A DNA stretch of 64,000 nucleotides from an uncultured bacterium (GTDB lineage: Bacteria; Margulisbacteria; Termititenacia; CAZZFK01): NCBI GenBank assembly GCA_964653455.1, contig CAZZFK010000001.1, positions 158,179 through 222,178 on the forward strand. The letters run 5' to 3'. Under the pieces are notes generated by a model that made no database searches, was not told the DNA's origin, and was given only the letters and a program-made list of their open reading frames with translations. This document shows positions 9,990 to 59,194 of this stretch, piece after piece. Position 1 is the stretch's first letter; each line of letters opens with the position of its first letter. The position numbers and the translations under genes are program-made.

Positions 9990-10001
9990 TTTCATTGCAC
10001 C

Positions 10002-10325: not shown

Positions 10326-10387
10326 AAAACACGGACCAGAACGAACGCCATCATCGAATATGATCGTCCGCGGCCCATCTTCCGGAG

Positions 10388-13246: not shown

Positions 13247-13394
13247 CTCTGCTCCCTTATTATGGGCGATACATTACCTTCCGGCACACCTGTGCCGGTA
13301 CTATGTTAATATCGTACAGATATCGTTGGAAATTCAGCGGATCAATCCTATGCCGTGGCCGGACGTACGACCGCGCTTGCGCTACCTCGCCAGC

Positions 13395-15521: not shown

Positions 15522-15582
15522 TTTGAGGGGCTCTGGAGGGTGGTGCCCGGTGTGAAAAATACCGAATAATGCCGGACCTTCG

Positions 15583-37949: not shown

Positions 37950-38083
37950 AGGAAAAGTATAGCATCGTAGTAAAGGGGCTGTCCTTGCCTGTACCCCCCT
38001 GAGCTGAATACTGTTTTCTGGGCTAGCATGCGCAAAACAGGTGCCAGACACCAACCAAGCCAAGCCCCACTTCTCTATATCAC

Positions 38084-38545
38084 TCAGTGAATACCCAAAA
38101 CATCACGTAATTTCTCCAATACCTCCCGAGAAACCGAGCTTTGGTCACATGCGAACAAGGACCACAAAAAGAATTTTGCCACATGAAAACCCATAAATAG
38201 ACAGAACAAGGTCATCAGATCAAGATGCATAATATTGAACTGCATCACAACAAGATGACCGAAAATAGCGATCAATAAGAATACATACGCGATCCTATCA
38301 AGATATATCCAGGGGCAATCATTTTGAGGATAGAGGTTCCCGCTCGTCACAGCTGCGTTCCAGAACGCGACAAACACAGCCATAAGGAAAGCCGTGATCG
38401 TTAAAAAACCGATCATACCCAGATAACCACCGTCATTTGGTATTGAATCACTGGACCACCATATCGAAGACCAGAACAGCCAATATGCGGTAGTTGCAAA
38501 TATTTTCCAGAACATATATACACCTCTTTCTTTAGTTTTTCCCAA
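38084..38545 (-). CDS. hypothetical integral membrane protein
   Basis: 153 aa with about four hydrophobic helices, Trp-rich N-terminus; no motif recognised. Confidence 0.5.
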   Translation of the reverse strand: MGKTKERGVYMFWKIFATTAYWLFWSSIWWSSDSIPNDGGYLGMIGFLTITAFLMAVFVAFWNAAVTSGNLYPQNDCPWIYLDRIAYVFLLIAIFGHLVVMQFNIMHLDLMTLFCLFMGFHVAKFFLWSLFACDQSSVSREVLEKLRDVLGIH

Positions 38546-38668
38546 ATACTATAGATACGCCTTTTGCCAAACAGAACACAAAAAGGCCTTGCATAATTGA
38601 TTCATGCATTCCGGGATTTTCCCCCATAAGGACCACCTGTTTCATAGCATTTTCAAGTTTATTCATAT

Positions 38669-38836
38669 TCATTTTCTTCTCCTTTTCTTAATACCCTTTT
38701 TGCTCTGTTCCTCGCGTTCCTGCAACAAACAAAGCAAAAATACAACATACAACACGCCAAACAATGCATACCCATACAGCCGGGAATAGAACACCGTGAC
38801 AAGAAAAACGACCACCCCCGGAATGGCTGCATACAT
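38669..38836 (-). CDS. small hydrophobic protein (55 aa, C-terminal KKRRRK)
   Basis: AGGAGGTG 6 nt upstream of ATG 38836 (MYAAIPGVVVFLVTVFYSRLYGYALFGVLYVVFLLCLLQ...); a second 46-codon ORF starts in an ATGA overlap with its stop; different frame from the Cys-rich 94-aa track ORF. Confidence 0.3.
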   Translation of the reverse strand: MYAAIPGVVVFLVTVFYSRLYGYALFGVLYVVFLLCLLQEREEQSKKGIKKRRRK

Positions 38837-39011
38837 ACATCACCTCCTGCTACTGAATAACAACAAGGCCCCACACAACCATATATAGCAGGTTTACTTG
38901 CCATTTTTTGGCAAGTTTGTTTATTAGTCATTTGACAATACAAATCAGGGAAATATCGGACAATTTATTGCTGAGTAATACTATTTTACTGACAGCCAAA
39001 TACCTTCCGTA

Positions 39012-40766
39012 TCATTCAGTTTCTACTTGTGAATTAAAATTCTTTAGCATATTCTGAACCTGTTCCCAATTACTTTCCGACGCGGTATACCTTTTGTCAT
39101 GAACAATCAGTTCTTCACCATATAATTTCTCAAGTATATACGCAACAGACTTAGTAATAGACCAAGCCAAGACCTCATCAGGCTTTTCTCCCAAACAATA
39201 CTTTTTGACATCCTCTTTTGAAACATTAATTAATATTTTCCCGGTGTAGCTAAGATAGCGGTATTTTTCTTTATCCATTATACAACCCGGAAAATTCGCA
39301 TGCTTCAATGTATTATGAATTTTCCGAACATCGTGCGCATTAGCAAATACCTTTTCGTCCATTCCACTCCACAAGCAACTCTTTTTAAGGCTGTTCAACA
39401 ATAGAAAATATTCACACTCATCCATACTCTCCGTTTTCTTCTCTACCTCTATCTTATCCTTATCCACTATCATAAAACTGTCCTTACCGGAGCTAACCAA
39501 AAGCGATCGATATTTTTTGCGAACAGCCTGCTCGGCCAAGGAACACCCCAGGCTACAAGCAGACTCATATTTCCCAATAAAATAACAAAAATACATTTCA
39601 TCTAACAATTTCCCCAGACGGGGATCTCCAATACTATTATCCGAATCGTCCTTTAATTCATACCTATTCCCATACTTTTCTAATCTCAGAAGACATTCTT
39701 GCTGCTTCTGCTCAGTAAAGAAATGCTGAGATAATTCAGATTCAACTTTGCTCTTTTGATCAAATTGAAGTTCTCTAATTTTTCTAGTATCAGCCAAAGC
39801 TTTTTCTATCTCGCCTCTTTCCCGATACAACTCAGCTCTAGCTTCTATAGCTGCTATAAAATTACCGTTAATCGCTATTGCTTTATTAAAGGCATCAAGC
39901 GCATCCTCAATATTACCAAAACTCTGGTCCTCTAGCCCGATGAAATAATAAGCATATTCATTATCTGGATTGAGCTCCAGAGCTTTCTCATAAGATGGAA
40001 ATCCATGACATTGGCTAGTATCGGAGCAGAAGAATACTATCGCATTCGACAATTCATTCTTATATTCAGGGCAGAGATCAGCCAAATTGTCTATCTGCAG
40101 CTCAAACTCCTCAAATAAAGCACTTATATCGACTGCAAGGTCTATCCAATCAAAAGCATCCATCATCGGAGTTTTAAGCACCTCAATATAATCATCAAGA
40201 GCTTCTTTATGCTTAGCTTGCTTCATCCTTGCATGGCCACGAAAGAAACATATATGACACCTAGGCGATGAATAACCAACCACTTTTAACTCTGAACGCT
40301 CTCTTTTATCCATATAGACAGAACAAGCTTTCTCCAATGCCGGATAGTCTTCCAATGCGAAATTAATCTGACACACGCGCCAATATACTTTCTCATCGAT
40401 ATCATTGCGACCACTCTCAAGAACCTTTTTATAGTCTTTAAGTGCATTTTCATAATCGGCGTTGTTAAAATACAAATCACCTCTATCATTATGAATAATA
40501 TCCTCATAACATCGCTTCAACCCATTTACCTCTGCAGGAAAGCGCTCAACAATATCCAATGCTTTTTTATAATCCTCAAACATTTGCTGAACTGCATCAG
40601 GATGATTTAACTTCTCTGTCGCCCATGCTCGCCACATATACGCTTGCGGAAGATAGATAGAGGTATCATTATTAGCAGTTTTTATTATTTCACTTAATAA
40701 ATCAAAGGCTTCTTGATATTTACCCTTATCATATAATTCAATACCAGCATTAATTTTTTCTTTCAT
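39012..40766 (-). CDS. TPR-repeat protein with uncharacterised C-terminal domain
   Basis: Repeated 34-residue units with the W/LG/Y/A/F/AP TPR pattern (KGKYQEAFDLL, YENALKDYKKVLE, ALDAFNKAIAINGNF); last ~230 aa have no recognised motif; AT-rich gene. Confidence 0.7.
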   Translation of the reverse strand: MKEKINAGIELYDKGKYQEAFDLLSEIIKTANNDTSIYLPQAYMWRAWATEKLNHPDAVQQMFEDYKKALDIVERFPAEVNGLKRCYEDIIHNDRGDLYFNNADYENALKDYKKVLESGRNDIDEKVYWRVCQINFALEDYPALEKACSVYMDKRERSELKVVGYSSPRCHICFFRGHARMKQAKHKEALDDYIEVLKTPMMDAFDWIDLAVDISALFEEFELQIDNLADLCPEYKNELSNAIVFFCSDTSQCHGFPSYEKALELNPDNEYAYYFIGLEDQSFGNIEDALDAFNKAIAINGNFIAAIEARAELYRERGEIEKALADTRKIRELQFDQKSKVESELSQHFFTEQKQQECLLRLEKYGNRYELKDDSDNSIGDPRLGKLLDEMYFCYFIGKYESACSLGCSLAEQAVRKKYRSLLVSSGKDSFMIVDKDKIEVEKKTESMDECEYFLLLNSLKKSCLWSGMDEKVFANAHDVRKIHNTLKHANFPGCIMDKEKYRYLSYTGKILINVSKEDVKKYCLGEKPDEVLAWSITKSVAYILEKLYGEELIVHDKRYTASESNWEQVQNMLKNFNSQVETE

Positions 40767-40809
40767 TATAGAAACCCCTTTTACCTTGTACCTTTCTTAA
40801 AATAACACA

Positions 40810-42237
40810 TCAAGAATTATCTTCATCCTGCCCTTTCTCGCCATATGCATCATAAAAATACCTGAACGCCACCTTCGCATTTGTAGTATCTTTATGATAT
40901 CTATTTGCCATTCTTTGCTTTAATACCTGCAGAATCGTACCGCAGCCCGGCTGATACTTCGACTTGCCGGAAAGCAACTTAATGACCTCTTCCGCGAGAG
41001 CGCTCCTGAGCTCCGTATTCATTTCTTTGCCAGCCCTATTCCCCTCCATCTGCTCTATCACATGATTGATCGTTTTCTCGGGATCCTTTTCATACTCATA
41101 AAAATACTTTTCCGCCTCAACTTCATTACTCCTGATGCTTGTCAGCTGTGCTTCATAATTATCTTTCATCTTGCTCACAACACTAAAGATCCGCTCCGTA
41201 AGCTCCCGGGGAGCATAGGCCGTTACATCCCCGCCCCAACCCAATATCCATTTTTCTAATGCATATTTATCCGCCAAAGTATCCCATTCAAAATCATTAA
41301 AAAAGAACTTTGCTTTTATATTGGAAGGGAGCATCGCAGCTTCTTGTATGACATTCCTGAAAAGTTCTTTTTTCCATATCCCTTTCGAATAAATGGCACT
41401 ATTGGCAAAGGTCTTCATTTCATACAGGTAGGGGGCGATCTTCGGGGATATCCGCACCTCCACAGATCTGCTGCTTTTCCTTTTTTGGGCATTTAAAAAC
41501 CTCTTTAATTCCTTACTCCTTGGTTTAAATTTCTTGTGCAGCTGCCGCATGCTCTTTATTCTGGCCAAAGCTAAAAGAACAAAGCCAGTCCGTGTTTTAT
41601 CCAGGCAATACGCCAATACATACCAGCGATAGTTGTTATACACAAAAACGTATGGCTCGATGACTTTTTCTTCCGCAACGAACTTATTATCCTGGAGTTT
41701 CGTGTACGTATAATATTCAATTTTCAGTGAAGTCTTCGCTTCGATCGCCGCATCAATACGTTCAAATACGTCCGAAAATGCAAAATCACAATAAGGAATA
41801 TGCCCGATAAAATATCTGGCCATAGTCTTCTTTGTATCGAGCTTGTGCTGCCCCATATTCGCCTTAATGATCTTTGCGACGGCAGACTTAAAATGGGTCT
41901 TGAGAGGCGTGCCTTCAAAAGAAGGCAGGAATCTTTCTGCTACAAGTAAAGCTTCTGCTTCCTTAGGAGATAGCGAAAAAGCACCCTTTGCTAAACGAAC
42001 AGGGTTAGTGAAGTAATACGTAGATTTCCCTTCTTTTTCAACCCTGACCATATCTTCTTCCATGAGCTTTTTCAGATTACGGTCTAATGTTCGTTGGGGA
42101 ATATGAAGATTATTCAGCAAATATTGTCGTGATAGTTTGTTCTTGATCAAAAGATCTTTATCTTTATCTAAATACTCTCGCGTTGTCAGCTCAATATAAT
42201 CTGTAAGGTATTTAATAGCTTTCACTTGCTTGCGCAT
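40810..42237 (-). CDS. WYL-domain transcriptional regulator with N-terminal HTH
   Basis: N-terminal winged-helix segment and a central WYL domain (EPYVFVYNNYRWYVLAYCLDKTRTGFVLLALARIKSM); about 230-aa C-terminal extension; AT-rich gene. Confidence 0.7.
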   Translation of the reverse strand: MRKQVKAIKYLTDYIELTTREYLDKDKDLLIKNKLSRQYLLNNLHIPQRTLDRNLKKLMEEDMVRVEKEGKSTYYFTNPVRLAKGAFSLSPKEAEALLVAERFLPSFEGTPLKTHFKSAVAKIIKANMGQHKLDTKKTMARYFIGHIPYCDFAFSDVFERIDAAIEAKTSLKIEYYTYTKLQDNKFVAEEKVIEPYVFVYNNYRWYVLAYCLDKTRTGFVLLALARIKSMRQLHKKFKPRSKELKRFLNAQKRKSSRSVEVRISPKIAPYLYEMKTFANSAIYSKGIWKKELFRNVIQEAAMLPSNIKAKFFFNDFEWDTLADKYALEKWILGWGGDVTAYAPRELTERIFSVVSKMKDNYEAQLTSIRSNEVEAEKYFYEYEKDPEKTINHVIEQMEGNRAGKEMNTELRSALAEEVIKLLSGKSKYQPGCGTILQVLKQRMANRYHKDTTNAKVAFRYFYDAYGEKGQDEDNS

Positions 42238-42454
42238 ATGTTATTTTGACATAGAAGCAATATGATTGCCATATTTTGGCAATAATATATTTGGGTATTA
42301 AAATGCCTGTATTTATTGCTTAAAAAATACCTCCATTACCCCCTGAATAGATATCATTTTTTACTGCCACGCCCAGCAAAACAGGCGCCAGACACCAACT
42401 TGAACAGAAGCATGATAAAATCAGGTCAGGATAGCGTACCGAGGGAGAAAGAGC

Positions 42455-45034
42455 ATGCCCGCATTCGATAAAGCAGCGTCAGGGCTCAAAGGGCTGGACG
42501 AACTCGTCCAGCATATCCGCATCGGCGATAATGTCGTCTGGCAGATAGATACACTGCAGGACTACAAGAAGTTCGTCGCGCCCTTTGTCCGTGAGGCCCT
42601 CGCCAAGAAGATCAAGATCATCTATATCCGTTTCGCGGACCACCCGCCGCTCCTCACCAAGCATAAAGGTCTGAAGATCTTCGACCTGCGCTGCCACAAG
42701 AGCTTTGAAGCGTTCACCGTGAAGGTCCATCAGATCATCAACAAAGAAGGCCGCGAGGTCTTCTACGTGTTCGATTGTCTTTCCGCGCTATTGAAGGCCT
42801 GGGCGACGGACCTGATGATAGGTAATTTTTTCATGGTCACCTGTCCGCTCCTCTTTGAACTGGATACTATCGCCTACTTCGGCATATACCGGCAGAACCA
42901 TTCGGCCAAGACCATCGCCCGTATCAGGGATACTACCCAGCTCCTGTTCGACATCTACTCGCTGAACAAGGACCTGTACATACACCCGCTAAAGGTCTGG
43001 AGAAGATATTCCTCCACGATGTTCTTGCCGCATCTGGTGCAGGGTGAAGATTTCAAGCCGGTCACCGACAGCGGGAGGGCTACCAGGATCCTTTCACATA
43101 TCTACCGTCAGGGGAACCGCCCCACCCGGGCCAAAGTTGATTTCTGGGATAAACTGCTCACAGAAGCCGAGAAACTGGCCCGCCCCAAAGCAGCCCCCCA
43201 GAGCAAAACAAAAATGTTCAAAAGACTGTGCGAATTGATGCTGGGGCGGGAGACCAAGATACTGAAACTGATCCAGGCACATCTCACACTGGAGGACCTA
43301 GTGGAGGTCATGCATCGGCTCGTCGGCTCAGGTTATATCGGAGGGAAGGCCGTCGGCATGCTGGTCTCCCGCAAGATCCTGATGAACGACAAAAGCTTCG
43401 CCTGGGGCGACCTTCTGGAAGACCACGATTCTTTCTATATCGGCTCGGACGTGTTCTACACCTATATCGTACAGAACGGCCTCTGGAAATCCTGGCTGAA
43501 GCACAAGAGCAACACATCCGACCTTACTATCGCACATGAACTGAAGGAAAAAATGCTGCATGGACAGTTCCCGGAAGAGATCATGGAGAAGTTCCAGGAC
43601 CTCGTCGACTATTTCGGTCAGGCGCCGATCATCCTCCGCTCAAGCAGCCTTTTGGAGGATAGCTACGGCAATGCTTTCGCCGGGAAGTACGAGAGCATCT
43701 TCATCGTCAATCAAGGCACGCCTGAGGGACGTCTCCTGGTTTTCACGGAAAGCATCAGAAAGATCTTCGCCAGCACCATGAACGACGATGCCCTGGCCTA
43801 TCGTCTGCAGCGCGGTCTGGCGGACAAGGAAGAACAGATGGCGTTGCTCGTGCAGCGCGTCTCGGGAGCGCACAAACAGAAATATTTCTTCCCGGACCTC
43901 GCGGGAGTTGGGCTCTCCTATAATACGTTCCTGTGGCAGGAAGGTATGGACCCTCAGGCCGGGATGCTGCGTCTCGTACTGGGACTGGGGACCCGCGCGG
44001 TCAACCGCGTCGAGGATGATTACCCGCGGCTCGTGGCGCTCGACCAACCGCTGCTCAAGCCGCATGCCAGCAAGGACGATACCCGCAAGTACTCGCAGCA
44101 TAACGTGGACCTATTGAACAAGAAACATAACACCTTGCAGACCCTGCCGCTGGACGAACTGGTGGAGGAAAAGACGGACCTGAAGCTGGAAAGGCTCGCT
44201 GAAAAAGACCATGAAATGATCGCCTACCGGCAGCAATACGCTTCGGACAGAAAAGACCTCTGGCTGGTGACCTTCGACGAGTTCCTGTCGACCACATCCT
44301 TCGCCCCGAACATGCAGCGTATGCTCAAAACCATCGAGAAGGCCTATCAATTCCCCGTGGACATAGAGTTCACCGGGAACTTCACCGAAGAAGGCGAACT
44401 GAAGATCAACTTGGTGCAATGCCGCCCGTTCCATGCGACGGCGCTCGGCAGCCGTGTGGCGTTGCCTGAACACATGGATGACGAACGAACGTTCTTCCGT
44501 TCTGTCGGCTTCTTTATCGGCGGGAACATCGACGAGACGCTCTCGCAGGTCATATACATCGATCCGGAAGCCTACAGCCGGCTGAAAGAACAGGAGAAAT
44601 ACGATATCGCCCGGGTGATCGGACGCCTCAATCGCGAAAAGGCAGCAGGGCCAGACCAACGCACCATACTGATCGGACCGGGACGCTGGGGGGCCAGCAT
44701 GCCGGCCATGGGAGTGCCGGTGAGCTTTTCCGAGATAAATAATTTCAAGGCCATCGTTGAAACTTCGTACCCCTTAGGACACCTACAGCCGGAACTTTCA
44801 CTCGGCTCGCATTTTTTCCAGGACTTGATCGAGATGGATATCTGTTATGTGGCGCTCTTCCTGGAAAAAGAGAACGTGTCATTGCGCTCCGAGCTTTTGA
44901 ACTCCCTGCCCAACCTGTTGACCGAATTCCTTCCGGAATATGCCAAGTACAGCGATGTCATAAAGGTCTGCGCAATGAACGTACGTCTTATCTCGGACAT
45001 CATCACACAAAAGATAGTCTGTTTTTCAGAATGA
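42455..45034 (+). CDS. PEP-utilising-enzyme N-terminal (PPDK_N, ATP-grasp-like) domain protein
   Basis: GSGYIGGKAVGMLVS and ILRSSSLLEDSYGNAFAGKYESIF match the PPDK_N nucleotide-binding motifs (GGK...; RSS..ED...FAG); no phospho-His swivel motif seen; 859 aa. Confidence 0.65.
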   Translation: MPAFDKAASGLKGLDELVQHIRIGDNVVWQIDTLQDYKKFVAPFVREALAKKIKIIYIRFADHPPLLTKHKGLKIFDLRCHKSFEAFTVKVHQIINKEGREVFYVFDCLSALLKAWATDLMIGNFFMVTCPLLFELDTIAYFGIYRQNHSAKTIARIRDTTQLLFDIYSLNKDLYIHPLKVWRRYSSTMFLPHLVQGEDFKPVTDSGRATRILSHIYRQGNRPTRAKVDFWDKLLTEAEKLARPKAAPQSKTKMFKRLCELMLGRETKILKLIQAHLTLEDLVEVMHRLVGSGYIGGKAVGMLVSRKILMNDKSFAWGDLLEDHDSFYIGSDVFYTYIVQNGLWKSWLKHKSNTSDLTIAHELKEKMLHGQFPEEIMEKFQDLVDYFGQAPIILRSSSLLEDSYGNAFAGKYESIFIVNQGTPEGRLLVFTESIRKIFASTMNDDALAYRLQRGLADKEEQMALLVQRVSGAHKQKYFFPDLAGVGLSYNTFLWQEGMDPQAGMLRLVLGLGTRAVNRVEDDYPRLVALDQPLLKPHASKDDTRKYSQHNVDLLNKKHNTLQTLPLDELVEEKTDLKLERLAEKDHEMIAYRQQYASDRKDLWLVTFDEFLSTTSFAPNMQRMLKTIEKAYQFPVDIEFTGNFTEEGELKINLVQCRPFHATALGSRVALPEHMDDERTFFRSVGFFIGGNIDETLSQVIYIDPEAYSRLKEQEKYDIARVIGRLNREKAAGPDQRTILIGPGRWGASMPAMGVPVSFSEINNFKAIVETSYPLGHLQPELSLGSHFFQDLIEMDICYVALFLEKENVSLRSELLNSLPNLLTEFLPEYAKYSDVIKVCAMNVRLISDIITQKIVCFSE

Positions 45035-45155
45035 CCGCACAATGAAAAAAAGATTAAGACGCTCCGACAGTACGTAAGGTGTCCTATCACCGAACAATAG
45101 TCTTTACCCGTTCCACTCTGCAATCATCGCATATTCCCTCCGATATCCACCCAGC

Positions 45156-46136
45156 ATGCTCAACAAACTGATCAGTCTCGATGATACCTGCCCGAACCTC
45201 CATCTGGTCATGGATGACCTATTGCACACGGTCTCCTGCATCATGCTCAGCCCCTTTCAACTCAGTACAAACAAATATGACGGATCCGCCGTAACGGACG
45301 CAGATGTAAAGATACAGCACCTATACAACAAAACACTGCCGACGCTCCTTCATGACTCAACGGTCCTGGGTGAGGAATCCTTCGCGGAAAGATTGAACTA
45401 TCTTTCAAAACATTGGGGCATATCCAGACATGAAGCCTCCGGACAGATAAAAAGTGAGTACCGCGCCCTTTTCAATACGTTCCGCTATATCTGGATCACA
45501 GACCCGATAGACGGCACAGATAATTTCAGCAAAGGCAAACCGGGCTACTGTACGTCCTTCATCCTGCTAGATAACGGTTACCCGGAATACGCCATGGTCT
45601 ATTCACCCGACCATATTGCCGCTTCATATGCAAGGACCTTCCGCCTAGAAGCGCATAATAAGGTCATATTCAACGGCAAAATACTGATACATACACCTCG
45701 GCCGGAAAAAAAATTATCCGATGCCATCATCAGCATATACCGTTCCTCCGTCATCGACAAAGACCCGGTCTATACGGCACTGGAAGACGTTTGTTGTCAT
45801 GTCCGTTATCATGAACTGGGCGTCTCCGGACAGCTCAAAGGACTGGAGATCATCCCGGAACTCACGAACGACCTGTTGGCTCCCGATATCTACATAAAAC
45901 CGCCGTCACCTGTCGAGGATGTACTGCCTATGGCCTTCATCGTTCAAACATACGGATATAAAGCTACCTATCTCGATGGCAGCGATATATTCCCCTTTAT
46001 GCCGGATAGGATCATGATCGACCCGAACGGAAAACAACGCCTGCCAGGTATCGTCATGGCACCGGAAGGTCTGCACACACAGCTCATGACCGCTATCCAT
46101 GCGTTCAGAGCCGCAAAGAGATCTCCCGGACATTAA
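45156..46136 (+). CDS. inositol monophosphatase-family phosphatase (SuhB/CysQ-like)
   Basis: WITDPIDGTDNFSKG is the IMPase-family metal-binding motif (W(I/V)DP(I/L)DGT..F); 326 aa. Confidence 0.7.
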   Translation: MLNKLISLDDTCPNLHLVMDDLLHTVSCIMLSPFQLSTNKYDGSAVTDADVKIQHLYNKTLPTLLHDSTVLGEESFAERLNYLSKHWGISRHEASGQIKSEYRALFNTFRYIWITDPIDGTDNFSKGKPGYCTSFILLDNGYPEYAMVYSPDHIAASYARTFRLEAHNKVIFNGKILIHTPRPEKKLSDAIISIYRSSVIDKDPVYTALEDVCCHVRYHELGVSGQLKGLEIIPELTNDLLAPDIYIKPPSPVEDVLPMAFIVQTYGYKATYLDGSDIFPFMPDRIMIDPNGKQRLPGIVMAPEGLHTQLMTAIHAFRAAKRSPGH

Positions 46137-46207: not shown

Positions 46208-46786
46208 ATGAACAGTAAAGTCATCGCGGCAAAAAATAACATGCTGGTCCGCCTCAGCCAAAAATTCAGCGGACTTTTCACCCCCAATATCAGCAAAAAA
46301 GACCTCTTTACCGTTTTCCAAAAAATGTTCCTTCAAATACTAGAAGAGTATCCATTCACGTCCGCTTATGACCGGGAATACATCCTGAAACATATGAACG
46401 TCGATATCAAGGAGATCTCCAGTTTTGGCATCTATAAAACCACGACCATAGTAGTGATAAGACAGGAACTCGCCATGGCTGTAGCCCGAGGTGAATGGAA
46501 TTACGGCGGAGATCCGTATATTATCACCAAAGTGATGATCTCTGACGGGGAAGCCGATATATTCAGGCAGCATAAGGAGGTCATCCCGAAACCTTTTGAC
46601 CATGATCACTCCATACCGCCAGATGAACGCTCATTGCTCGACAGATACACGTCTACCGCGTTCGACCTCTCAAGAGAACATACCGTACATATGCTGAAAC
46701 GGATCATTCAGCCCATCATATTCGAGAATATCATGGTCATTCTCATGAACCTGAAGATAAACAATAATGATGCGGAGATGGATTGA
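46208..46786 (+). CDS. hypothetical protein (192 aa)
   Basis: ORF with AAGAGGAG upstream of the ATG; no motif recognised. Confidence 0.5.
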   Translation: MNSKVIAAKNNMLVRLSQKFSGLFTPNISKKDLFTVFQKMFLQILEEYPFTSAYDREYILKHMNVDIKEISSFGIYKTTTIVVIRQELAMAVARGEWNYGGDPYIITKVMISDGEADIFRQHKEVIPKPFDHDHSIPPDERSLLDRYTSTAFDLSREHTVHMLKRIIQPIIFENIMVILMNLKINNNDAEMD

Positions 46787-46816
46787 ACCGTCACCAAAGA
46801 ACATCACCATCAAACG

Positions 46817-47209
46817 CTAGTGTTCTCTCCATACATAGTTCGATGTGATGCTCACACCTTCGATCACGACAGTTTTCATGAGCTTCATCTTTTCTCTGTT
46901 CGGGATATAACTGTTCACGGTGACGATCTTATGCAGGAACCCGCTCACGTTCGCGGTAATGATATAGGTGCCCTCGCCCAGGTAATATTCATTGTCGCAG
47001 TTCGCATAGAGCGCTTCCGGGTCTGCGGCCACTGACTGCGCCCGACTGAGACCTGTCTCCGCAAGGGCCAATAACTGAAGTTCGTTCTCATAACGCAGAA
47101 CATCTACCGTGCGCGAAGCCGATAAGGTCACACGCAATATACCCAGTGATGAAAGGACGAACACGACTATCAGAACAGTTAAAAGGATGAATCCTTTTTG
47201 ATCCTTCAT
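46817..47209 (-). CDS. GspK/PilX-like minor pseudopilin
   Basis: N-terminal MKDQKGFILLTVLIVVFVLSSL (Gly-Phe then hydrophobic helix, no Glu+5, as in GspK-type pseudopilins); GAGGAG 6 nt upstream of ATG 47209, ATGA overlap with the upstream gene stop. Confidence 0.55.
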   Translation of the reverse strand: MKDQKGFILLTVLIVVFVLSSLGILRVTLSASRTVDVLRYENELQLLALAETGLSRAQSVAADPEALYANCDNEYYLGEGTYIITANVSGFLHKIVTVNSYIPNREKMKLMKTVVIEGVSITSNYVWREH

Positions 47210-47781
47210 AGGATGCTCCTCGGATAGACCTGCGTATTGAGCGTCAGTGTATATTCCCGCACACATGCACCAACGGAAAAAGATATCCCAGCTCCGGAAG
47301 CTCTGAACATCGTCACCGGCGGCGGCAGAAGGTCTTTGGCGATAACGGTCCCTGTGCCGTAATTCCCCTGTGTCACATTAGGTGATGCCAGCAGCTTCAA
47401 TTGCACGGTCTGGGTCGGGCTATACGATCCGTACTGATAGAACTGGAAACTGGACGCCGGTACATACATATAAAAGATATGCCCTGTATCGTTCTTCAGG
47501 TACGATAACGTTGCTCCGCTCCCTCCTACCGTTACAGAACCGCTACGGGCGGCGCGGACCTCACGCGAGACCGACTGCACGGCCCTACGCGCCTCATCTT
47601 CCACTCTTCCCTGCACCAACCCGATATCCCAGGACCGGTAGGCCATCATGTACACATAAAATATCAGCTCAAAGATAAAAAGAGATATCGAAAGCGCAAT
47701 GATCAGTTCCATAAGCGTCACCCCGCGGCGGCCGTCCGCTCGTCCCCCTGATATCAAATCCTTCAGCCGGGTGATGGTCAT
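47206..47781 (-). CDS. pseudopilin with prepilin-type N-terminal domain
   Basis: GVTLMELIIALSISLFIF is the prepilin cleavage/methylation motif (G-(F/V)TL.E + helix); start set at ATG 47781 (GAGGGAG upstream, ATGA overlap) rather than 47835. Confidence 0.6.
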   Translation of the reverse strand: MTITRLKDLISGGRADGRRGVTLMELIIALSISLFIFELIFYVYMMAYRSWDIGLVQGRVEDEARRAVQSVSREVRAARSGSVTVGGSGATLSYLKNDTGHIFYMYVPASSFQFYQYGSYSPTQTVQLKLLASPNVTQGNYGTGTVIAKDLLPPPVTMFRASGAGISFSVGACVREYTLTLNTQVYPRSIL

Positions 47782-48224
47782 AGAAAGAACTCCCTCACGA
47801 TAGTAACGGAACCCTTGCTGTCCCGCTCTATCCACTGCACATTCACCGTTACACGTTCGGAGATAGTGCCCGACTCAACTTCGATCTCCGGGAGGAATGA
47901 GGAGCGCGGCGGAGAGCTCTGCGCGACCTGTTCCATTAATTGCTCGGCACGGACCGCGGCTTTAAGCTGTGCCCGGGCATCATTTGAAGAACGAATATCT
48001 ACATTGAACACCTCAAGGATGGCGACCAGAGAGAACGCCACCACGAACACTGAAATAATGACCTCAATAAGGGTAAAGCCGTCACGGCCAGCCCTGAACG
48101 TGCTGGGTAGCTGGACTTCACTGGGTTCAATGCTTTTGACAGCTGCTTCAGGAGCCCCCCTGAACGCGCTGATTTGCCGGCTCTTACTGGTTTTAATGCT
48201 TTTGACAGCTGCTTCAGGGGTCAT
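47778..48224 (-). CDS. pseudopilin with unusually long leader containing a tandem duplication
   Basis: GFTLIEVIISVFVVAF prepilin motif preceded by a 50-aa leader with the repeat PEAAVKSI(K/E)(T/P)S twice; AGGAGG 5 nt upstream of ATG 48224. Confidence 0.6.
   Translation of the reverse strand: MTPEAAVKSIKTSKSRQISAFRGAPEAAVKSIEPSEVQLPSTFRAGRDGFTLIEVIISVFVVAFSLVAILEVFNVDIRSSNDARAQLKAAVRAEQLMEQVAQSSPPRSSFLPEIEVESGTISERVTVNVQWIERDSKGSVTIVREFFL
48121..48218. repeat. two copies of a 32-bp direct repeat, 66 bp apart
   Basis: CTGGGTTCAATGCTTTTGACAGCTGCTTCAGG (48121-48152) and CTGGTTTTAATGCTTTTGACAGCTGCTTCAGG (48187-48218); within the pseudopilin leader coding region. Confidence 0.8.
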
Positions 48225-49441
48225 CCCAACCTCCTGAGCGAACCGGCCATCTTGAACATCGGCAGCAGTATGGATGCCGCTATGAACATGACGATGAGCG
48301 CTATGAAGATCAATGCTATCGGCTCAAGCAGGGTCATCTGCCGCTTGATCTTGTACTCCGTTTCCTGGTCATAGAAATCCGAGGCCTTGAGCGCCATATC
48401 ATCGAGCGTTCCCGATTCCTCGCCGACGCCTATCATATGCGCCATGATCTGAGGGAAAACACCGCTTTGGCTCAAAGGTTCGGCTATCCCTTTGCCGTCT
48501 CGCACGCTGTCTATGACCGTGTTTATCGCTTCCGCCATGACGATATTATTGAGCGCGTCACGGCTCAGCTCCAATGAACGGATGAGCGGCACCCCGCTCT
48601 TATGCAGGATGCCCAGGGTCCTTGCGAAACGAGAGAGCGCTGCGTGATGGATGACCGTCCCGAATATCGGCATCTTGAACTTGAACAGGTCCTTCAATCT
48701 GCGGCCTTCCTGCGTCTGAATGAAGAAGATCGCCCCGAAAATGATACTGACAATGCCGAGCAACATGAACAGATAATAGTTCGAAACGAAATTCGAGACA
48801 TGGACCAGGATACGCGTGGCCAACGGCAGTTCTATGTTGCTCTGCTGGAATATCTGCACGAATTTCGGCAGCACGAACACGATCATTGCCACGAGCACAA
48901 GGCTCCCGACCGAGAGCAGCAGTATCGGGTACGTGAGCGCCGAGACCACCTTGTTCCGTATCTCCCGGTTCTTCTCTTCAAAGACCAGTATACGCTCAAA
49001 AGCCTCATCGAGCTGACCACGGCTCTCTCCGACGTCGACCATATTGATCATGAACGGCGAGAATACCTGAGGAAAGACCGTCATGGCCTTGGCCAGAGAG
49101 GAACCTTCGGAAAGGTCGTTCTTGAGCGATGTGACGATGCGCTTGAGCCGCGGCTCGTCGGTCTGATCGATAACTATCTGAATTGCCTTGAAGAGCGGTA
49201 TCCCTGCGCGGATGAGCGTGCCTAATTGCCGGATAAAGACCAGCAGATCATCGATCGGCACACGCATAAAAAAGTCCTGAACCTGTTCCAGTAACGTACG
49301 CTGGACCAGATGGACCTCCAGCATCTGCTGACCTTCTACATAGAGACGATCGCGCAGCATCTCCGGAGATGACGCTTCCGCCTCATGATGAACGGTCTCG
49401 CCAGTTGTGATGGACCGGGCTGCATATGAATATTTCGGCAT
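48221..49441 (-). CDS. type II secretion / type IV pilus platform protein (GspF/PilC family)
   Basis: N-terminal MPKYSYAARSITTGE is the family-typical start; two repeated cytoplasmic domains and three TM helices; start at ATG 49441 (GGAGGGAG upstream), not the track's extension. Confidence 0.8.
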   Translation of the reverse strand: MPKYSYAARSITTGETVHHEAEASSPEMLRDRLYVEGQQMLEVHLVQRTLLEQVQDFFMRVPIDDLLVFIRQLGTLIRAGIPLFKAIQIVIDQTDEPRLKRIVTSLKNDLSEGSSLAKAMTVFPQVFSPFMINMVDVGESRGQLDEAFERILVFEEKNREIRNKVVSALTYPILLLSVGSLVLVAMIVFVLPKFVQIFQQSNIELPLATRILVHVSNFVSNYYLFMLLGIVSIIFGAIFFIQTQEGRRLKDLFKFKMPIFGTVIHHAALSRFARTLGILHKSGVPLIRSLELSRDALNNIVMAEAINTVIDSVRDGKGIAEPLSQSGVFPQIMAHMIGVGEESGTLDDMALKASDFYDQETEYKIKRQMTLLEPIALIFIALIVMFIAASILLPMFKMAGSLRRLG

Positions 49442-49530
49442 TGAACTGTGTACTCCCTCCTCACCACCCCCATCCCCCACTCCTGCATGCCCCGAGCTTG
49501 TCGAGGGGGAGAGGGGGACGAGGTGTGAGG
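49442..49530 (-). promoter_or_regulatory. C-rich/G-rich self-complementary intergenic element between GspE and GspF genes, including the GspF Shine-Dalgarno
   Basis: On the mRNA a C-rich tract (CCUCACACCUCGUCCCCCUCUCCCCCUC) precedes a G-rich tract (GGGGGAUGGGGGUGGUGAGGAGGGAG) that contains the SD; CCUCAC can pair with GGUGAGG. Confidence 0.35.
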
Positions 49531-51210
49531 CTAGCGAATGACCCTCATGACCTCTTCAAGCGTCGTCATACCCGCTTTAGCCTTGAGGATACCGTCATCT
49601 TTAAAGGTCCGCATACCTTCGCGCTGGGCAGCTATCCCGATATCGCCTGAAGTCGTCCCCGGGGTCCCGAGCAGCCGTTGTACGACCTCGCCCGGCACCA
49701 TGAGCTCATACAGGCCCAGGCGCCCTTTGTAACCGCTGCCCTGACAATCCGGACATCCGGCGCCGCGATAGAAAGAAACACTGCCGGGCTTGATCCCCGC
49801 CCACTGCAGCGCGTCGGCATCAGGTGTGTAGCTCACTTTGCACTTCGGGCAGACCCTGCGCACCAGGCGCTGGGCGAGCACACCGATGACAGTGGAACTG
49901 ACCAGGTACGGCTCGATGCCCATTTCCACAAGACGCGTGATACATGAGGGGGCATCATTTGTATGGAGCGTACTGAAGACCAAATGCCCCGTAAGCGCAG
50001 CCTGGAAGGATATTTCTGCCGTTTCCGGGTCGCGAATTTCCCCGACCAGGATGATGTCCGGGTCTTGACGCAGGAACGAACGCAGTCCTTTGGCGAACGT
50101 AAGACCGGCCTTCGGATTCACCTGAGACTGATTGATAAGGTCCAGATGATATTCAATGGGATCCTCGATGGTCACGATGTTCTTTTCGACGCTCTTCAAG
50201 CGATTGAGTATCGCGTACAGCGTCGTCGTTTTACCGCTGCCGGTAGGACCCGTGACCAGGATGATGCCATAGGTCTTGGTGATGAGCGGCAGGAGCGATG
50301 TGAGCATGTCCGGCATGATGCCCAGGTCTTCCAGGTCGAAAAGCACGCTCTGTTTATCCAGTAGACGGATGACGATCTTCTCGCCGTCGAGCACCGGGAA
50401 ACTGGAAACGCGCAGGTCTATCAGACGGTTCTCGACCTTCACCTGGAACCCGCCGTCCAGCGGTACGCGCTTCTCGGCGATATCCATGCGGGCCAATATC
50501 TTGATGCTCGAGATGAGCGAATTGGAAAGATGTTTCGGGAAGGTCATCATGGCGCGCAGCACACCGTCTATACGGAAACGGACCTTGAGCTCCGCTTCGA
50601 CCGGTTCAAAATGAATATCGCTCGCCCGTTCCCGTATGGCATGAGAGATGATGAGATGCAGAAGACGATTGACGGGCCCTGCGGCGGAAGAGGCCTGGAA
50701 CACCTGGTTCTCCACCATGCCGAGCGTTATATCGCTCAACCCCTGCACGTCCAGATCATCGATTATCTTCTTGATGGACGTGAACACCCCGAAATGCTGG
50801 TCAAGGACCGCGGTTATCTCGGCGAGCGTTGAGACCACCGGCTCGATACGGCATCTGGTATGGAACTCAAGCTCCTCAATGGCCTTATGATCGAGGGGGT
50901 CCGCCATGGCCACAAATAACGTATCTTTGACCTTGAACAGCGGGAAGAATGAATACCTGCGTGCCACTTCTCCGGGGACCAGCCGCAGAACGCTCAGGTC
51001 CAGCTTTTTACCCGCAAGTTTATAGCGCGGTATGCCTGCGTATTCCGAAAGAAAATCAGCGAGCAGCGACTGATCTATCAGCCCCAGGTCGCTTATCGTC
51101 CGGATGAAGGTCTCGTTCTTTTCCAGATGCGTGTTTGACGCGACATCAAGGTCCCGGACGGAAAGAAGTCCCTGTGCTACGAGCTCGGTACCGATGCTTT
51201 TAAAGCTCAT
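49531..51210 (-). CDS. type II secretion / type IV pilus assembly ATPase (GspE/PilB family)
   Basis: Walker A VTGPTGSGKTTTLYA, GspE N-terminal domain, Walker B and tetracysteine motif (CPKC ... CPDC). Confidence 0.9.
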   Translation of the reverse strand: MSFKSIGTELVAQGLLSVRDLDVASNTHLEKNETFIRTISDLGLIDQSLLADFLSEYAGIPRYKLAGKKLDLSVLRLVPGEVARRYSFFPLFKVKDTLFVAMADPLDHKAIEELEFHTRCRIEPVVSTLAEITAVLDQHFGVFTSIKKIIDDLDVQGLSDITLGMVENQVFQASSAAGPVNRLLHLIISHAIRERASDIHFEPVEAELKVRFRIDGVLRAMMTFPKHLSNSLISSIKILARMDIAEKRVPLDGGFQVKVENRLIDLRVSSFPVLDGEKIVIRLLDKQSVLFDLEDLGIMPDMLTSLLPLITKTYGIILVTGPTGSGKTTTLYAILNRLKSVEKNIVTIEDPIEYHLDLINQSQVNPKAGLTFAKGLRSFLRQDPDIILVGEIRDPETAEISFQAALTGHLVFSTLHTNDAPSCITRLVEMGIEPYLVSSTVIGVLAQRLVRRVCPKCKVSYTPDADALQWAGIKPGSVSFYRGAGCPDCQGSGYKGRLGLYELMVPGEVVQRLLGTPGTTSGDIGIAAQREGMRTFKDDGILKAKAGMTTLEEVMRVIR

Positions 51211-51704: not shown

Positions 51705-52067
51705 GTGTTCAACAAGATCATCATGGACGGAGAACTGTTCACCATTTCTCAGGATGAAATGGACTCCCTGTTCCTGACCGACAGTACGACTGACCGGGCC
51801 GCACCCGTATATGGCAAGATCGCGCGGCTCCTGAAAGAAGCCCGGGGATTCGATACCCTGAGCGTCGAAGAGATATGGATAGCTCTCCTCCCGCTCCTTT
51901 TACAGGGCCCCTCACCGAACGCAGAATGTCCGACAGCACAGGAAAAGATACTGACGCTCATTGAACAAGGGGCCTTCGACCGGATCCCGGAGGACGTCAG
52001 TATCGAGCTTTTGGCCGACCTGAGCGGCGCACTGGCGAAAAAGTACATGCGGGATAGTGTTCCTTAG
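51705..52067 (+). CDS. hypothetical protein (120 aa)
   Basis: GTG start with AAGGAG 8 nt upstream; no motif recognised. Confidence 0.45.
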   Translation: MFNKIIMDGELFTISQDEMDSLFLTDSTTDRAAPVYGKIARLLKEARGFDTLSVEEIWIALLPLLLQGPSPNAECPTAQEKILTLIEQGAFDRIPEDVSIELLADLSGALAKKYMRDSVP

Positions 52068-52102
52068 CTCATCTGCGAAAGCTCGACCCCGGACAGCTGG
52101 TT

Positions 52103-53977: not shown

Positions 53978-54121
53978 AGTTCACACCTTATCTAAGAACG
54001 CCAAGCGGGTTCCTTCATAATACATACCCCATGTACTGCCATTTTATACATACCTGTATCCACCCCTGATTTATTGATATTTATCAAATACAAAATGACC
54101 ACCTATTGCTAGGCTACCGCA

Positions 54122-57469: not shown

Positions 57470-57531
57470 GACTGCATTATATCAATGCAATAATGCAACT
57501 GCAAAGGTCGTACGGAAAAAAGGAGAGATAT

Positions 57532-58608: not shown

Positions 58609-58704
58609 GCGCTGGCACACTGACCATTTGTTCATGGTCAGTGAAATTACAGAAGATTATGTTCGACACCTTACAGGGATACGTTCGCTATAAGGAGCCG
58701 ATAT

Positions 58705-59169: not shown

Positions 59170-59194
59170 CCGACCGTGTGAAAACACCTTGCCA

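What the first reader, a model, noticed from the sequence alone, without database searches (positions are those of the whole stretch)
42455..46136. PPDK_N-domain protein without a phospho-His domain, divergent from the WYL regulator and followed by an IMPase-family phosphatase
The 859-aa protein has the ATP-grasp-like nucleotide-binding motifs of PEP-utilising enzymes in its central region, but I see no His-swivel motif and the N- and C-terminal ~300 aa are unassigned. It shares a 217-bp divergent intergenic region with the WYL regulator, an arrangement in which such regulators often control the neighbouring gene. A phosphotransferase next to a bisphosphate nucleotidase-like gene suggests small-molecule phosphorylation chemistry.
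Basis: partly seen in the sequence, partly recalled or inferred. Interest (0 to 1): 0.45.

Follow-up and report, generated by a model that had tools for sequence, protein, structure and literature searches.

The report
Uncharacterised KaiC-like ATP-grasp phosphotransferase family member
The gene encodes one member of a very large, never-studied family of three-domain ATP-using enzymes that in other bacteria sits beside nitrogen-assimilation genes; its two neighbours here (a WYL regulator and an inositol-phosphatase-like gene) are local one-offs with no evidence of a functional link.

Summary
ORF 42455-45034 (859 aa) has one Pfam domain, PPDK_N (aa 294-663), and no canonical phospho-His or PEP/pyruvate domain. 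It is followed by a divergent IMPase-fold gene and lies 217 bp from a divergent WYL gene.

The WYL and TPR genes lie in a low-GC island (0.33-0.45 against about 0.52). Both the WYL and IMPase proteins are orphans in a 5.8-billion-protein database. None of 80 related genome loci, nor the four closest orthologues examined (64-81% identity), has either neighbour.

The protein belongs to a very large cross-phylum family of about 860 aa with three parts:
- a KaiC/RecA-fold N-domain without a Walker A motif;
- an ATP-grasp domain with intact nucleotide-binding motifs;
- a 196-aa C-domain with a swivelling beta/beta/alpha-like fold, carrying near-invariant GPGRWG and G(S/T)HFFQD motifs.

In 52 of 80 loci the family gene lies within 6 kb of gdhA, gltBD, amtB-glnK, nrpR or carA.

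Best reading: an ATP-dependent, dikinase-like phosphotransferase or regulator tied to nitrogen assimilation, possibly relaying phosphate through His786. That relay is inferred, not shown. No published characterisation was found.

The parts
42455..45034 (+). Gene for the 859-aa KaiC-like / PPDK_N ATP-grasp / C-terminal-domain protein. It is a full-length member of the ~860-aa family that NCBI names 'PEP/pyruvate-binding domain-containing protein'.
   Evidence: There are >=8000 homologous clusters, and the top hits cover 99-100% of the query at 52-81% identity. 145 positions are >=97% conserved across 84 diverse members and all 145 are kept in the window protein.
42476..43189 (+). N-terminal KaiC/RecA-fold domain (aa ~8-245) with a degenerate P-loop. 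GDNVVWQIDTLQDY stands where KaiC has GxxGxGKT, and YIRFADH stands where KaiC has TFEE. It is probably a pseudo-ATPase acting as a scaffold, oligomerisation module or ligand/target-binding module.
   Evidence: Foldseek of AF2 model mccfd63e5df00 (pLDDT 81, pTM 0.81) against PDB: KaiC 7s65_B E 7.8e-10 and FlaH 4yds E 3.1e-9, about 226-245 aligned columns. Pfam gives only sub-threshold PAXNEB and MEDS hits. The absence of Walker A is read directly from the sequence. The domain is found essentially only in ~850-885-aa proteins of this architecture: 935 representatives at E<=1e-3.
43334..44443 (+). PPDK_N-type ATP-grasp nucleotide-binding domain (aa 294-663). The canonical motifs are kept: GGK 296-298, RSSS 395-398, ED 401-402, FAGK 408-411, QR 467-468, DIEF 636-639 and QCRP 655-658.
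   Evidence: Pfam PF01326, E 3.9e-50. PDB alignments to the RPH ATP domain 5hv6 and PEP synthase 2ols align VRSSATAED..FAGQ and DIEW..QARP with these motifs. Foldseek to RPH 5hv3/5hv1 gives E 2e-13 and to HpeI 9goj E 1.9e-11. The motifs are >=97% conserved in the family.
44444..45031 (+). C-terminal 196-aa domain (aa 664-859) with no sequence-level family. Its predicted fold is swivelling beta/beta/alpha-like. It carries the near-invariant motifs GPGRWG (aa 741-746, nt 44675-44692) and GSHFFQD (aa 784-790). The candidate phospho-carrier His786 is the codon at 44810-44812.
45156..46136 (+). Downstream neighbour: a divergent, lineage-specific IMPase-fold protein of 326 aa. It is adjacent to the target gene but not demonstrably part of the same system.
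   Evidence: Pfam Inositol_P, E 1.6e-15, aa 43-215 only. DPIDGT and the GEE motif are present. It is an orphan in the 5.8e9-protein database. No IMPase-signature ORF occurs in the 80 other family loci. The 121-nt gap shows no terminator, so co-transcription is not excluded.
40810..42237 (-). Upstream divergent neighbour: an HTH-WYL-WCX regulator of 475 aa. It lies in a low-GC island together with the co-oriented TPR gene 39012-40766. It is probably a unit with that gene, not with the target.
   Evidence: Pfam WYL and WCX and PADLOC generic WYL. GC is 0.33-0.45 across 37900-42399, against 0.51-0.60 in 42400-44799. It is an orphan; the best foreign hit is 24% identity at E 2.5e-9.
42265..42283 (.). 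Perfect 7-bp inverted repeat ATTGCCA-N5-TGGCAAT in the AT-rich part of the intergenic region. It lies 28 nt upstream of the WYL ATG and 172 nt upstream of the target ATG. It is a candidate WYL operator (autoregulation).
   Evidence: Function is untested.

Best explanation
The ORF encodes a full-length member of a very large, cross-phylum, experimentally uncharacterised family of ~860-aa proteins built from three modules.

1. An N-terminal KaiC/RecA-fold domain that has lost Walker A and the catalytic glutamates. It is probably a pseudo-ATPase used for oligomerisation or for binding a ligand or target.
2. A PPDK_N ATP-grasp domain with all nucleotide-binding motifs intact.
3. A C-terminal 196-aa swivelling beta/beta/alpha-like domain with near-invariant GPGRWG and G(S/T)HFFQD loops.

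The protein is not a PEP synthase or PPDK. I propose it is an ATP-dependent, dikinase-like phosphotransferase. In this model the ATP-grasp domain phosphorylates the near-invariant His786 on the C-terminal domain, and the phosphate is then passed to, or signals to, a target held by the KaiC-like domain. Its physiological role would be in control or catalysis at the ammonium/glutamate/2-oxoglutarate node.

Shown here: the architecture, the conservation, the family size, the nitrogen-gene neighbourhood in other genomes, and the non-conservation of the WYL and IMPase neighbours. Inferred: catalysis, the His786 relay, the target, and that the nitrogen link applies in this genome. Here the gene is flanked by lineage-specific genes that give no functional clue.
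For: - Domains: Pfam PPDK_N E 3.9e-50. The AF2 model has pLDDT 81 and pTM 0.81. Foldseek matches RPH at E 2e-13, HpeI at 1.9e-11 and KaiC/FlaH at 1e-9.
- ATP-grasp motifs: GGK, RSS..ED, FAGK, DIEF and QCRP are >=97% conserved.
- Family size and breadth: >=8000 clusters. There are 576 confirmed genomic loci, in Planctomycetota, Syntrophales, Omnitrophota, Bacillota, Actinomycetota, Marinobacter, Ectothiorhodospira and Burkholderiales.
- Neighbourhood: 52 of 80 loci carry gdhA, gltBD-like, amt-PII, nrpR or carA within 6 kb.
- Immediate neighbours by Pfam: GdhA 20, GltD 8, Amt 5, GAF-sigma54 activator 5, NrpR 4, plus GSIII, CarAB, CTP synthase and EIIA-2. gdhA is often co-oriented with gaps of -54 to +171 nt.
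- Precedents for PPDK-derived kinases with other roles: RPH (PMC4844700), HpeHI (PMC12167813), and VadK, a PPDK-derived His autokinase that binds and tunes metabolic enzymes (PMC13400623).
Against: - I could not inspect model coordinates, so the proximity of His786 to the ATP site is unknown.
- The nitrogen association is absent in this window.
- The association is weak in the window's own clade. PEPCK, EF-P, RsgA or sulfate-assimilation genes are adjacent there, and an archaeal-type GOGAT lies 2.5-8 kb away in only two cases.
- The duplicated long forms show unrelated contexts.
- No sigma54-promoter enrichment was found upstream of family genes.
- No experimental literature was found.
Confidence: 0.5

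Rival explanations
1. First reader's model. The WYL regulator controls the divergent PPDK_N gene, which works together with the downstream IMPase-like phosphatase in small-molecule phosphorylation and dephosphorylation chemistry.
For: The layout is physically divergent, with a 217-bp spacer containing a perfect palindrome. The IMPase-like gene is co-oriented 121 nt downstream with no terminator between. The IMPase metal-binding motifs DPIDGT and GEE are present.
Against: The WYL and TPR genes lie in a low-GC island that ends inside the spacer. The palindrome sits next to the WYL start, not the target start. Both WYL and IMPase are orphans. Neither occurs next to the family gene in 80 loci or in the 64-81% orthologues. 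No IMPase or WYL family appeared among the 25 most frequent neighbour families listed for each side, out of 86 and 81 families detected.
Confidence: 0.08
2. A direct ATP-grasp kinase or ligase without a phospho-His intermediate. The C-terminal domain simply binds the substrate and the conserved His is a catalytic or binding residue rather than a phospho-carrier.
For: The ATP-grasp motifs are intact. There is no detectable homology of the C-domain to swivel domains at sequence level. The full-length model has pTM 0.81, which suggests a fixed rather than freely swivelling arrangement.
Against: To my knowledge, characterised PPDK_N-type ATP-grasp enzymes act through a phospho-His carrier. Examples are PEPS, PPDK, RPH, HpeHI, VadK and, from my own knowledge, GWD and phenylphosphate synthase (PMC4844700, PMC12167813, PMC13400623). 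The C-domain has the right fold class and position, and a His at the N-terminus of a helix after a flexible conserved loop.
Confidence: 0.22
3. A non-catalytic sensor or scaffold. The protein binds ATP and/or a metabolite such as 2-oxoglutarate or glutamine through the ATP-grasp and KaiC-like pseudo-ATPase domains. It regulates partner enzymes or regulators (GDH, GOGAT, NrpR, sigma54 activators) by protein-protein contact only.
For: The KaiC-like domain has lost its P-loop yet is highly conserved, with 45 near-invariant positions. The family gene is adjacent to regulators: NrpR, GAF-sigma54 activators and PII. VadK offers a precedent for binding to metabolic enzymes (PMC13400623).
Against: Complete retention of the catalytic ATP-grasp motifs, including the Mg/phosphate ligands E638, Q655 and R657, argues for turnover. 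The near-invariant GPGRWG and GSHFFQD loops look catalytic.
Confidence: 0.15
4. An ordinary PEP synthase, PPDK or rifampin phosphotransferase that was misjudged by eye.
For: There is a PPDK_N domain and there are weak NCBIfam hits to PEP synthase, RPH and PigC models.
Against: Scores are 28-57 bits against cut-offs of 500-1350, and only aa 325-473 (one model to 660) match. There is no PEP-utilizers or PEP-utilizers_C domain. There is no RIF-binding-like region. The N-terminal domain is KaiC-like.
Confidence: 0.01

Closest known systems
Rifampin phosphotransferase (RPH; PDB 5hv1/5hv3; PMC4844700)
   Different: RPH has an N-terminal ATP-grasp domain, a ~430-aa rifampin-binding domain and a canonical swivel domain with the GGxxTHGA motif. 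The window protein has an N-terminal KaiC-like domain, no RIF-binding-like domain and no canonical swivel motif. NCBIfam RIF_Ptrans_rph scores 32 bits against a cut-off of 999.
Two-component dikinases HpeHI / AcvAB / phenylphosphate synthase (PDB 9goj; PMC12167813)
   Same: In these enzymes a PPDK_N ATP-grasp module is separated from the canonical full-length PEPS/PPDK context. HpeI is the third-best structural hit (E 1.9e-11). They show that the ATP-grasp module can work with a divergent or separate His-carrier module.
   Different: In those systems the His carrier and substrate-binding domains lie on a second polypeptide encoded next door and are recognisably RPH-like. Here everything is in one chain, there is no such partner gene, and there is an extra KaiC-like domain.
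VadK (Rv1127c), a PPDK-derived regulatory His autokinase of Mycobacterium tuberculosis (PMC13400623)
   Same: It is a PPDK-family protein that has lost the PEP/pyruvate chemistry. It autophosphorylates and regulates metabolic enzymes by interaction. This is the closest functional analogy for a dikinase-like protein embedded among gdhA and gltBD genes.
   Different: From the paper's abstract, VadK evolved from PPDK and autophosphorylates as a histidine kinase; that it keeps a canonical swivel domain is my assumption. It has no KaiC-like domain, and its pathway is the methylcitrate cycle, not nitrogen assimilation. Homology beyond the ATP-grasp domain was not tested here.
KaiC / FlaH (ArlH) RecA-superfamily ATPases (PDB 7s65, 4yds)
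   Same: The fold of aa ~8-245 matches (Foldseek E 1e-9 to 1e-8, TM normalised to target up to 0.65-0.67). The N-terminal G-L-x-G-L-D-E motif and a Walker-B-like hhhhD (VFYVFD) are retained.
   Different: Walker A (GxxxxGK[ST]) and the catalytic EE are absent across the whole family. No KaiC or ATPase Pfam model is matched. The domain is fused to an ATP-grasp domain.
PEP synthase / pyruvate phosphate dikinase
   Same: They share the PPDK_N nucleotide-binding domain with all its motifs.
   Different: The window protein has no PF00391 mobile domain and no PF02896 TIM barrel, so it has no PEP/pyruvate site. Scores are far below the equivalog cut-offs.

Membership tests
PEP synthase / PPDK (canonical PEP-utilising dikinases) | PPDK_N ATP-grasp nucleotide-binding domain | tested here: met
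   PF01326, E 3.9e-50, aa 294-663. The motifs align with 5hv6 and 2ols.
PEP synthase / PPDK (canonical PEP-utilising dikinases) | Mobile phospho-His domain (PF00391) with the GGxTSHAAIxAR motif | tested here: not met
   There is no Pfam hit, even at E<=10 on 20 family C-domains. The regex is absent. hhalign against PpsA, PtsI and a 14-sequence swivel alignment gives probability <1%.
PEP synthase / PPDK (canonical PEP-utilising dikinases) | PEP/pyruvate-binding TIM-barrel domain (PF02896) and the NCBIfam equivalog score | tested here: not met
   There is no Pfam hit. The best NCBIfam PEP synthase score is 56.9 bits against a cut-off of 883.
Rifampin-phosphotransferase-like small-molecule dikinases | RPH-like ATP-grasp domain | tested here: met
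   Foldseek to 5hv3 E 2.1e-13 and to 5hv6_B E 1.7e-10.
Rifampin-phosphotransferase-like small-molecule dikinases | Central substrate-binding (RIF-binding-like) domain | tested here: not met
   NF041857 matches only aa 357-469, at 32 bits against 999. There is no room for a ~430-aa domain between the ATP-grasp domain and the C-terminus. The N-terminal domain is KaiC-like instead.
Rifampin-phosphotransferase-like small-molecule dikinases | C-terminal swivel domain carrying the phospho-His | tested here: inconclusive
KaiC/RecA-like ATPases | RecA-like core fold | tested here: met
   Foldseek to KaiC and FlaH, E 8e-10 to 4e-8, probability 1.00.
KaiC/RecA-like ATPases | Walker A P-loop GxxxxGK[ST] and catalytic glutamates | tested here: not met
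   The sequence reads GDNVVWQIDTLQDYKKF and YIRFADH at the equivalent positions. The family consensus is the same.
Uncharacterised ~860-aa 'PEP/pyruvate-binding domain-containing protein' family (KaiC-like + PPDK_N + C-domain) | Colinear full-length similarity and retention of the family's invariant residues in all three domains | tested here: met
   Coverage is 99-100% at 52-81% identity. All 145 near-invariant positions are kept, and the window differs only at 10 mostly conservative columns.
Uncharacterised ~860-aa 'PEP/pyruvate-binding domain-containing protein' family (KaiC-like + PPDK_N + C-domain) | Neighbourhood of nitrogen-assimilation genes (typical of the family, not defining) | tested here: not met
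   No gdhA, gltBD, amtB, glnK or nrpR was found among the window ORFs annotated. By contrast, 52 of 80 other loci have one.
IMPase superfamily (downstream gene 45156-46136) | Inositol_P domain with the DPxDGT and EE metal-binding motifs | tested here: met
   PF00459, 57.7 bits against a cut-off of 27. DPIDGT lies at aa 116-121 and GEE at aa 72-74.
IMPase superfamily (downstream gene 45156-46136) | Assignment to a specific subfamily (CysQ, HisN, SuhB, FBPase/IMPase) and an intact C-terminal WDxAAG motif | tested here: not met
   The best equivalog scores are 44 bits (HisN, cut-off 275) and 35 bits (CysQ, cut-off 229). The Pfam match stops at profile position 187 of 271. No close homologues exist.
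WYL-domain transcription regulators (upstream gene 40810-42237) | HTH + WYL + WCX architecture | tested here: met
   WYL E 1.3e-10, WCX E 4e-5, and a TrmB/ArsR-like HTH at aa 29-82. PADLOC WYL E 8e-21.

The most novel reading that the evidence does not exclude
The family is an unrecognised, widespread ATP-driven phospho-His device: a KaiC-like hub, an ATP-grasp domain and a non-canonical swivel domain. It would modify or regulate the glutamate dehydrogenase / GOGAT / PII node, giving a nitrogen-control module in anaerobes and others that is analogous in logic to VadK or to the nitrogen-PTS but powered by ATP.
Probability: 0.2. Interest if true: 0.8.

Novelty: new variant of a known kind. Interest (0 to 1): 0.5.

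Why it matters
The window's gene is ordinary as an instance, but the family it belongs to is not explained. There are thousands of sequence clusters in at least six phyla, with near-invariant motifs in three domains. No Pfam or NCBIfam model covers two of the three domains, and I found no paper on the family.

The family gene lies within 6 kb of gdhA, gltBD, amtB-glnK, nrpR or carA in about two thirds of the loci examined. That points to a missing enzyme or regulator at the ammonium/glutamate/2-oxoglutarate node. The hypothesis is directly testable in cultured Marinobacter, Ectothiorhodospira, Amphibacillus or Geobacter strains.

The case also shows that a PPDK_N protein 'without a His domain' may carry a cryptic, highly divergent carrier domain.

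For annotation practice: the WYL and IMPase adjacency here should not be propagated as a functional link.

Tried and rejected
1. Canonical swivel domain. Pfam (also at E<=10 on 20 C-domains), PDB hmmsearch with a family profile, and hhalign against E. coli PpsA and PtsI were all negative. So was hhalign against a 14-sequence swivel alignment assembled from plasmid-borne PEPS, PPDK, PtsP and RPH-like genes. A by-eye colinear motif match exists: TILIGPGRW with ILVTDxTDPxW, AIVE with AIVT, and GSHFFQDLIE-DICYVAL with TSHAAIVAREL-GIPAVVG. I keep it only as an inference.
2. Foldseek of the isolated C-domain against PDB found nothing with E<0.1.
3. Defence-system idea, prompted by the WYL neighbour. 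PADLOC gives nothing for the target, the IMPase-like protein, the TPR protein or the small ORFs.
4. Riboswitch or RNA element in the spacer. Rfam finds nothing in the whole window.
5. Sigma54 promoters upstream of family genes, as independent evidence of nitrogen control. The score distribution equals that of the controls.
6. Conserved context for the duplicated ~1470-aa forms. One locus (Geobacter sp. OR-1) lies between an alpha-amylase-family gene and pgi, hinting at glucan metabolism, but two other loci do not share this.
7. Carbon-metabolism reading for the window clade. A PPi-PFK gene lies beyond the island, the downstream gene has an IMPase/FBPase fold, and PEPCK lies upstream of the 64% orthologue. 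This is suggestive but each observation is a single case.
8. Literature searches for the family name, PF01326, KaiC plus ATP-grasp, and gdhA plus PEP synthase returned nothing on this family.
9. Organism identity could not be established.

Full report
**Observation**

ORF 42455-45034 (+) is an intact 859-aa ATG ORF, preceded by an SD-like GAGGGAG.
- Pfam detects a single domain, PPDK_N, at aa 294-663 (E 3.9e-50). It finds neither the PEP-utilizers mobile domain nor the PEP-utilizers_C barrel.
- NCBIfam models for PEP synthase, RPH and PigC/RedH touch mainly aa ~330-470, at 28-57 bits against cut-offs of 500-1350.
- PDB sequence search aligns VRSSATAED..FAGQ and DIEW..QARP of RPH and PEP synthase with LRSSSLLED..FAGK and DIEF..QCRP of the query.
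- The next gene, 45156-46136 (+), is 326 aa. It matches Inositol_P above threshold but only over its first two thirds, and it has DPIDGT.
- The divergent gene 40810-42237 (-) is an HTH-WYL-WCX regulator. The spacer is 217 bp.

The one adjustment is that the unassigned C-terminal part is about 196 aa, not about 300.

**The neighbours are local accidents**

GC content is 0.33-0.45 from about 37900 to 42399 and 0.51-0.60 from 42400 to 44799. The WYL gene, the co-oriented TPR gene (43-nt gap) and two small ORFs therefore form a compositional island whose edge lies inside the spacer.
- The WYL protein has no relative better than 24% identity (E 2.5e-9) among 5.8 billion proteins.
- The IMPase-like protein has none better than E 1e-6 over about a third of its length.
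- tblastn with both proteins against 80 genomic loci that encode family members (up to 6 kb of flank each side, where the contig allowed) found nothing. Only the window's own contig carries an ORF with a DPxDG[TS] signature.
- The closest orthologues show different neighbours. The 81% orthologue has cupredoxin and EF-P; the 67% orthologues have polyprenyl synthase and RsgA, or TauE/APS-kinase; the 64% orthologue has PEPCK.
- A perfect palindrome, ATTGCCA-N5-TGGCAAT (42265-42283), lies 28 nt from the WYL start in the AT-rich part of the spacer. It is best read as the regulator's own operator.
- No terminator separates the target from the IMPase-like gene. Co-transcription is possible, but there is no comparative support for a functional pair.
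- PADLOC gives no defence-system assignment to any of these genes beyond the generic WYL domain.

**What the protein is**

A database search returned 8000 scored homologous clusters, which is the cap. The top 120 cover 99-100% of the query at 52-81% identity and are nearly all 856-892 aa. Where a source names them, the name is 'PEP/pyruvate-binding domain-containing protein' or 'hypothetical'.

A genome scan confirmed 576 loci. The best 80 come from Planctomycetota, Syntrophales/Syntrophorhabdus, Desulfuromonadales, Omnitrophota, Spirochaetota, Elusimicrobia, Bacillota, Actinomycetota, Marinobacter, Ectothiorhodospira, Thiocapsa and Burkholderiales.

About ten ~1470-aa variants, for example in Geobacter sp. 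OR-1, consist of [ATP-grasp + C-domain] followed by a complete 860-aa unit.

An AF2 model built on 40 family sequences is confident (pLDDT 81, pTM 0.81). Foldseek against PDB gives two classes of hits:
- RPH (E 2e-13) and HpeI (E 1.9e-11) for the ATP-grasp domain;
- KaiC and FlaH (E 8e-10 to 4e-8, about 230 columns) for aa ~8-245.

The KaiC-like domain lacks Walker A (GDNVVWQIDTLQDY) and the catalytic glutamates (YIRFADH) throughout the family. It nevertheless has 45 near-invariant positions.

A search with this domain alone against 1.84 billion representatives found 935 hits (168 at E<=1e-30). The full-length hits are all about 825-917 aa, with one of 1484 aa, so the domain is essentially specific to this architecture.

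**The C-terminal domain**

Residues 664-859 have no Pfam, PDB-sequence or HHalign relative. The negative results include a 14-sequence alignment of genuine swivel domains that I assembled from E. coli and plasmid genes. Foldseek is also silent.

Two motifs, GPGRWG (741-746) and G(S/T)HFFQD (784-790), are near-invariant in 84 sequences down to 44% identity. They align with conserved copies in both C-domains of the long form P0005. Both sit in low-confidence loops, and His786 lies at the N-terminus of a helix that is followed by a strand. This is the same local geometry as TSH-AAIVAR-GIPAVV in swivel domains; that comparison is my own inference.

My conclusion is that a canonical His-swivel is absent, and that a cryptic, highly divergent carrier domain is plausible but unproven.

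**Functional context of the family**

I clustered all ORFs from the 80 loci. The recurrent neighbours are as follows (with identities checked by Pfam):
- NADP-type glutamate dehydrogenase in 29 loci, often co-oriented with gaps from -54 to +171 nt, for example overlapping stop/start in Marinobacter profundi;
- glutamate synthase large and small subunits;
- ammonium transporter plus PII;
- NrpR;
- CarA.

In total, 52 of 80 loci have at least one of these within 6 kb. One cluster also contains generic flavoprotein oxidoreductases, so this figure is an upper estimate.

Scoring only the immediate neighbours with Pfam gave GdhA 20, GltD-type 8, Amt 5, GAF-sigma54 activators 5 and NrpR 4. It also gave GS type III, CarA/B, CTP synthase and EIIA-2.

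For a single-copy gene such as gdhA, chance adjacency within 6 kb is well below 1% per genome. The association spans several phyla.

It is absent from this window. The genes here are PPi-PFK, U32 peptidase, an ABC-2 exporter, type IV pilus genes, HydF, CorA and HerA. It is also weak in the window's immediate clade.

An attempt to add independent support through sigma54 promoter enrichment failed.

**Mechanism and comparison**

To my knowledge, characterised enzymes with a PPDK_N ATP-grasp domain work through a phospho-His carrier. RPH does so within one chain (PMC4844700) and HpeHI does so with the carrier on a second subunit (PMC12167813). VadK is a PPDK derivative that has become a regulatory His autokinase acting on metabolic enzymes (PMC13400623).

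By analogy, I propose the following. The intact ATP-grasp domain of this family phosphorylates His786 of the C-domain. The KaiC-like pseudo-ATPase domain provides oligomerisation and/or the docking site for the acceptor, which could be a small molecule or a nitrogen-assimilation protein.

The architecture, the conservation and the neighbourhood are shown. Catalysis, the His relay, the acceptor and the nitrogen role in this organism are inferred.

The main rivals are a direct ATP-grasp kinase or ligase with no His intermediate, and a non-catalytic sensor.

**Verdict**

The finding is real. As an instance it is an ordinary member of a large family, and the proposed local partnership is not supported. 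The family itself is an uncharacterised architectural variant of the PEP-utilising dikinase superfamily with a strong, apparently unreported link to nitrogen-assimilation genes. No paper on it was found in seven literature searches. Interest is moderate: 0.5.

Noticed in passing
window 37900-42399: A low-GC island (0.33-0.45 against about 0.52) carries a 584-aa TPR protein, the WYL regulator and two small ORFs with no Pfam hit (38084-38545 and 38659-38943). Both the WYL and TPR genes look lineage-specific. It is probably an insertion between the PPi-PFK gene and the target gene.
   Followed up: partly
window 42262-42277 (minus strand): On the minus strand the palindrome region reads TGGCAATCATATTGCT. 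This matches the sigma54 -24/-12 spacing (TGGCAC-N5-TTGCW) and points towards the WYL gene. In AT-rich DNA it could be chance.
   Followed up: no
window 10388-17424 (minus strand): Three consecutive large ORFs (952, 708 and 613 aa) have no Pfam hit at E<=1e-5, in a region of slightly lower GC (0.47-0.51). Immediately upstream on the same strand lies an unusually long phosphoglycerate kinase (533 aa, 17525-19126).
   Followed up: no
window 20245-26422 (+): Two adjacent signalling proteins of about 1040 aa: REC-PAS-GGDEF-EAL, then multi-PAS-GGDEF. Their ORFs overlap by 92 nt.
   Followed up: no
window 52001-54000: A second low-GC patch (0.41) contains a 624-aa family-2 glycosyltransferase (52103-53977, minus strand).
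   Followed up: no
window 57433-60973 (minus strand): A HerA-like helicase (DUF87/HerA_C, 59195-60973) lies upstream of a 400-aa ORF with no Pfam hit (57433-58635). This may be a HerA-NurA-type pair.
   Followed up: no
window 46208-48224: A 192-aa ORF with no Pfam hit lies downstream of the IMPase-like gene. Three minus-strand ORFs follow, one with an N-terminal methylation (pilin) motif, and lead into PilC (48221-49480) and PilB (49531-51210). A long-form family member (L103) also sits next to PilB/PilT-like genes, probably by coincidence.
   Followed up: partly
L101 (Geobacter sp. OR-1, BAZF01000004.1) 4500-14052: The duplicated 1472-aa family member lies between an 1149-aa alpha-amylase-family gene and pgi, all co-oriented with short gaps. 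This hints at a glucan or sugar-phosphate role, but the arrangement is not seen in two other long-form loci (L103, L104).
   Followed up: partly
L082 5992-10586: In the 64%-identical orthologue, a GTP-dependent PEP carboxykinase gene ends 30 nt before the family gene on the same strand. This may be an operon link to the PEP node.
   Followed up: no
window 45120-45158: The IMPase-like ORF has no recognisable Shine-Dalgarno sequence before its ATG (…TCCCTCCGATATCCACCCAGCATG). The target gene, in contrast, has GAGGGAG. The true start, or the mode of translation, is uncertain.
   Followed up: no
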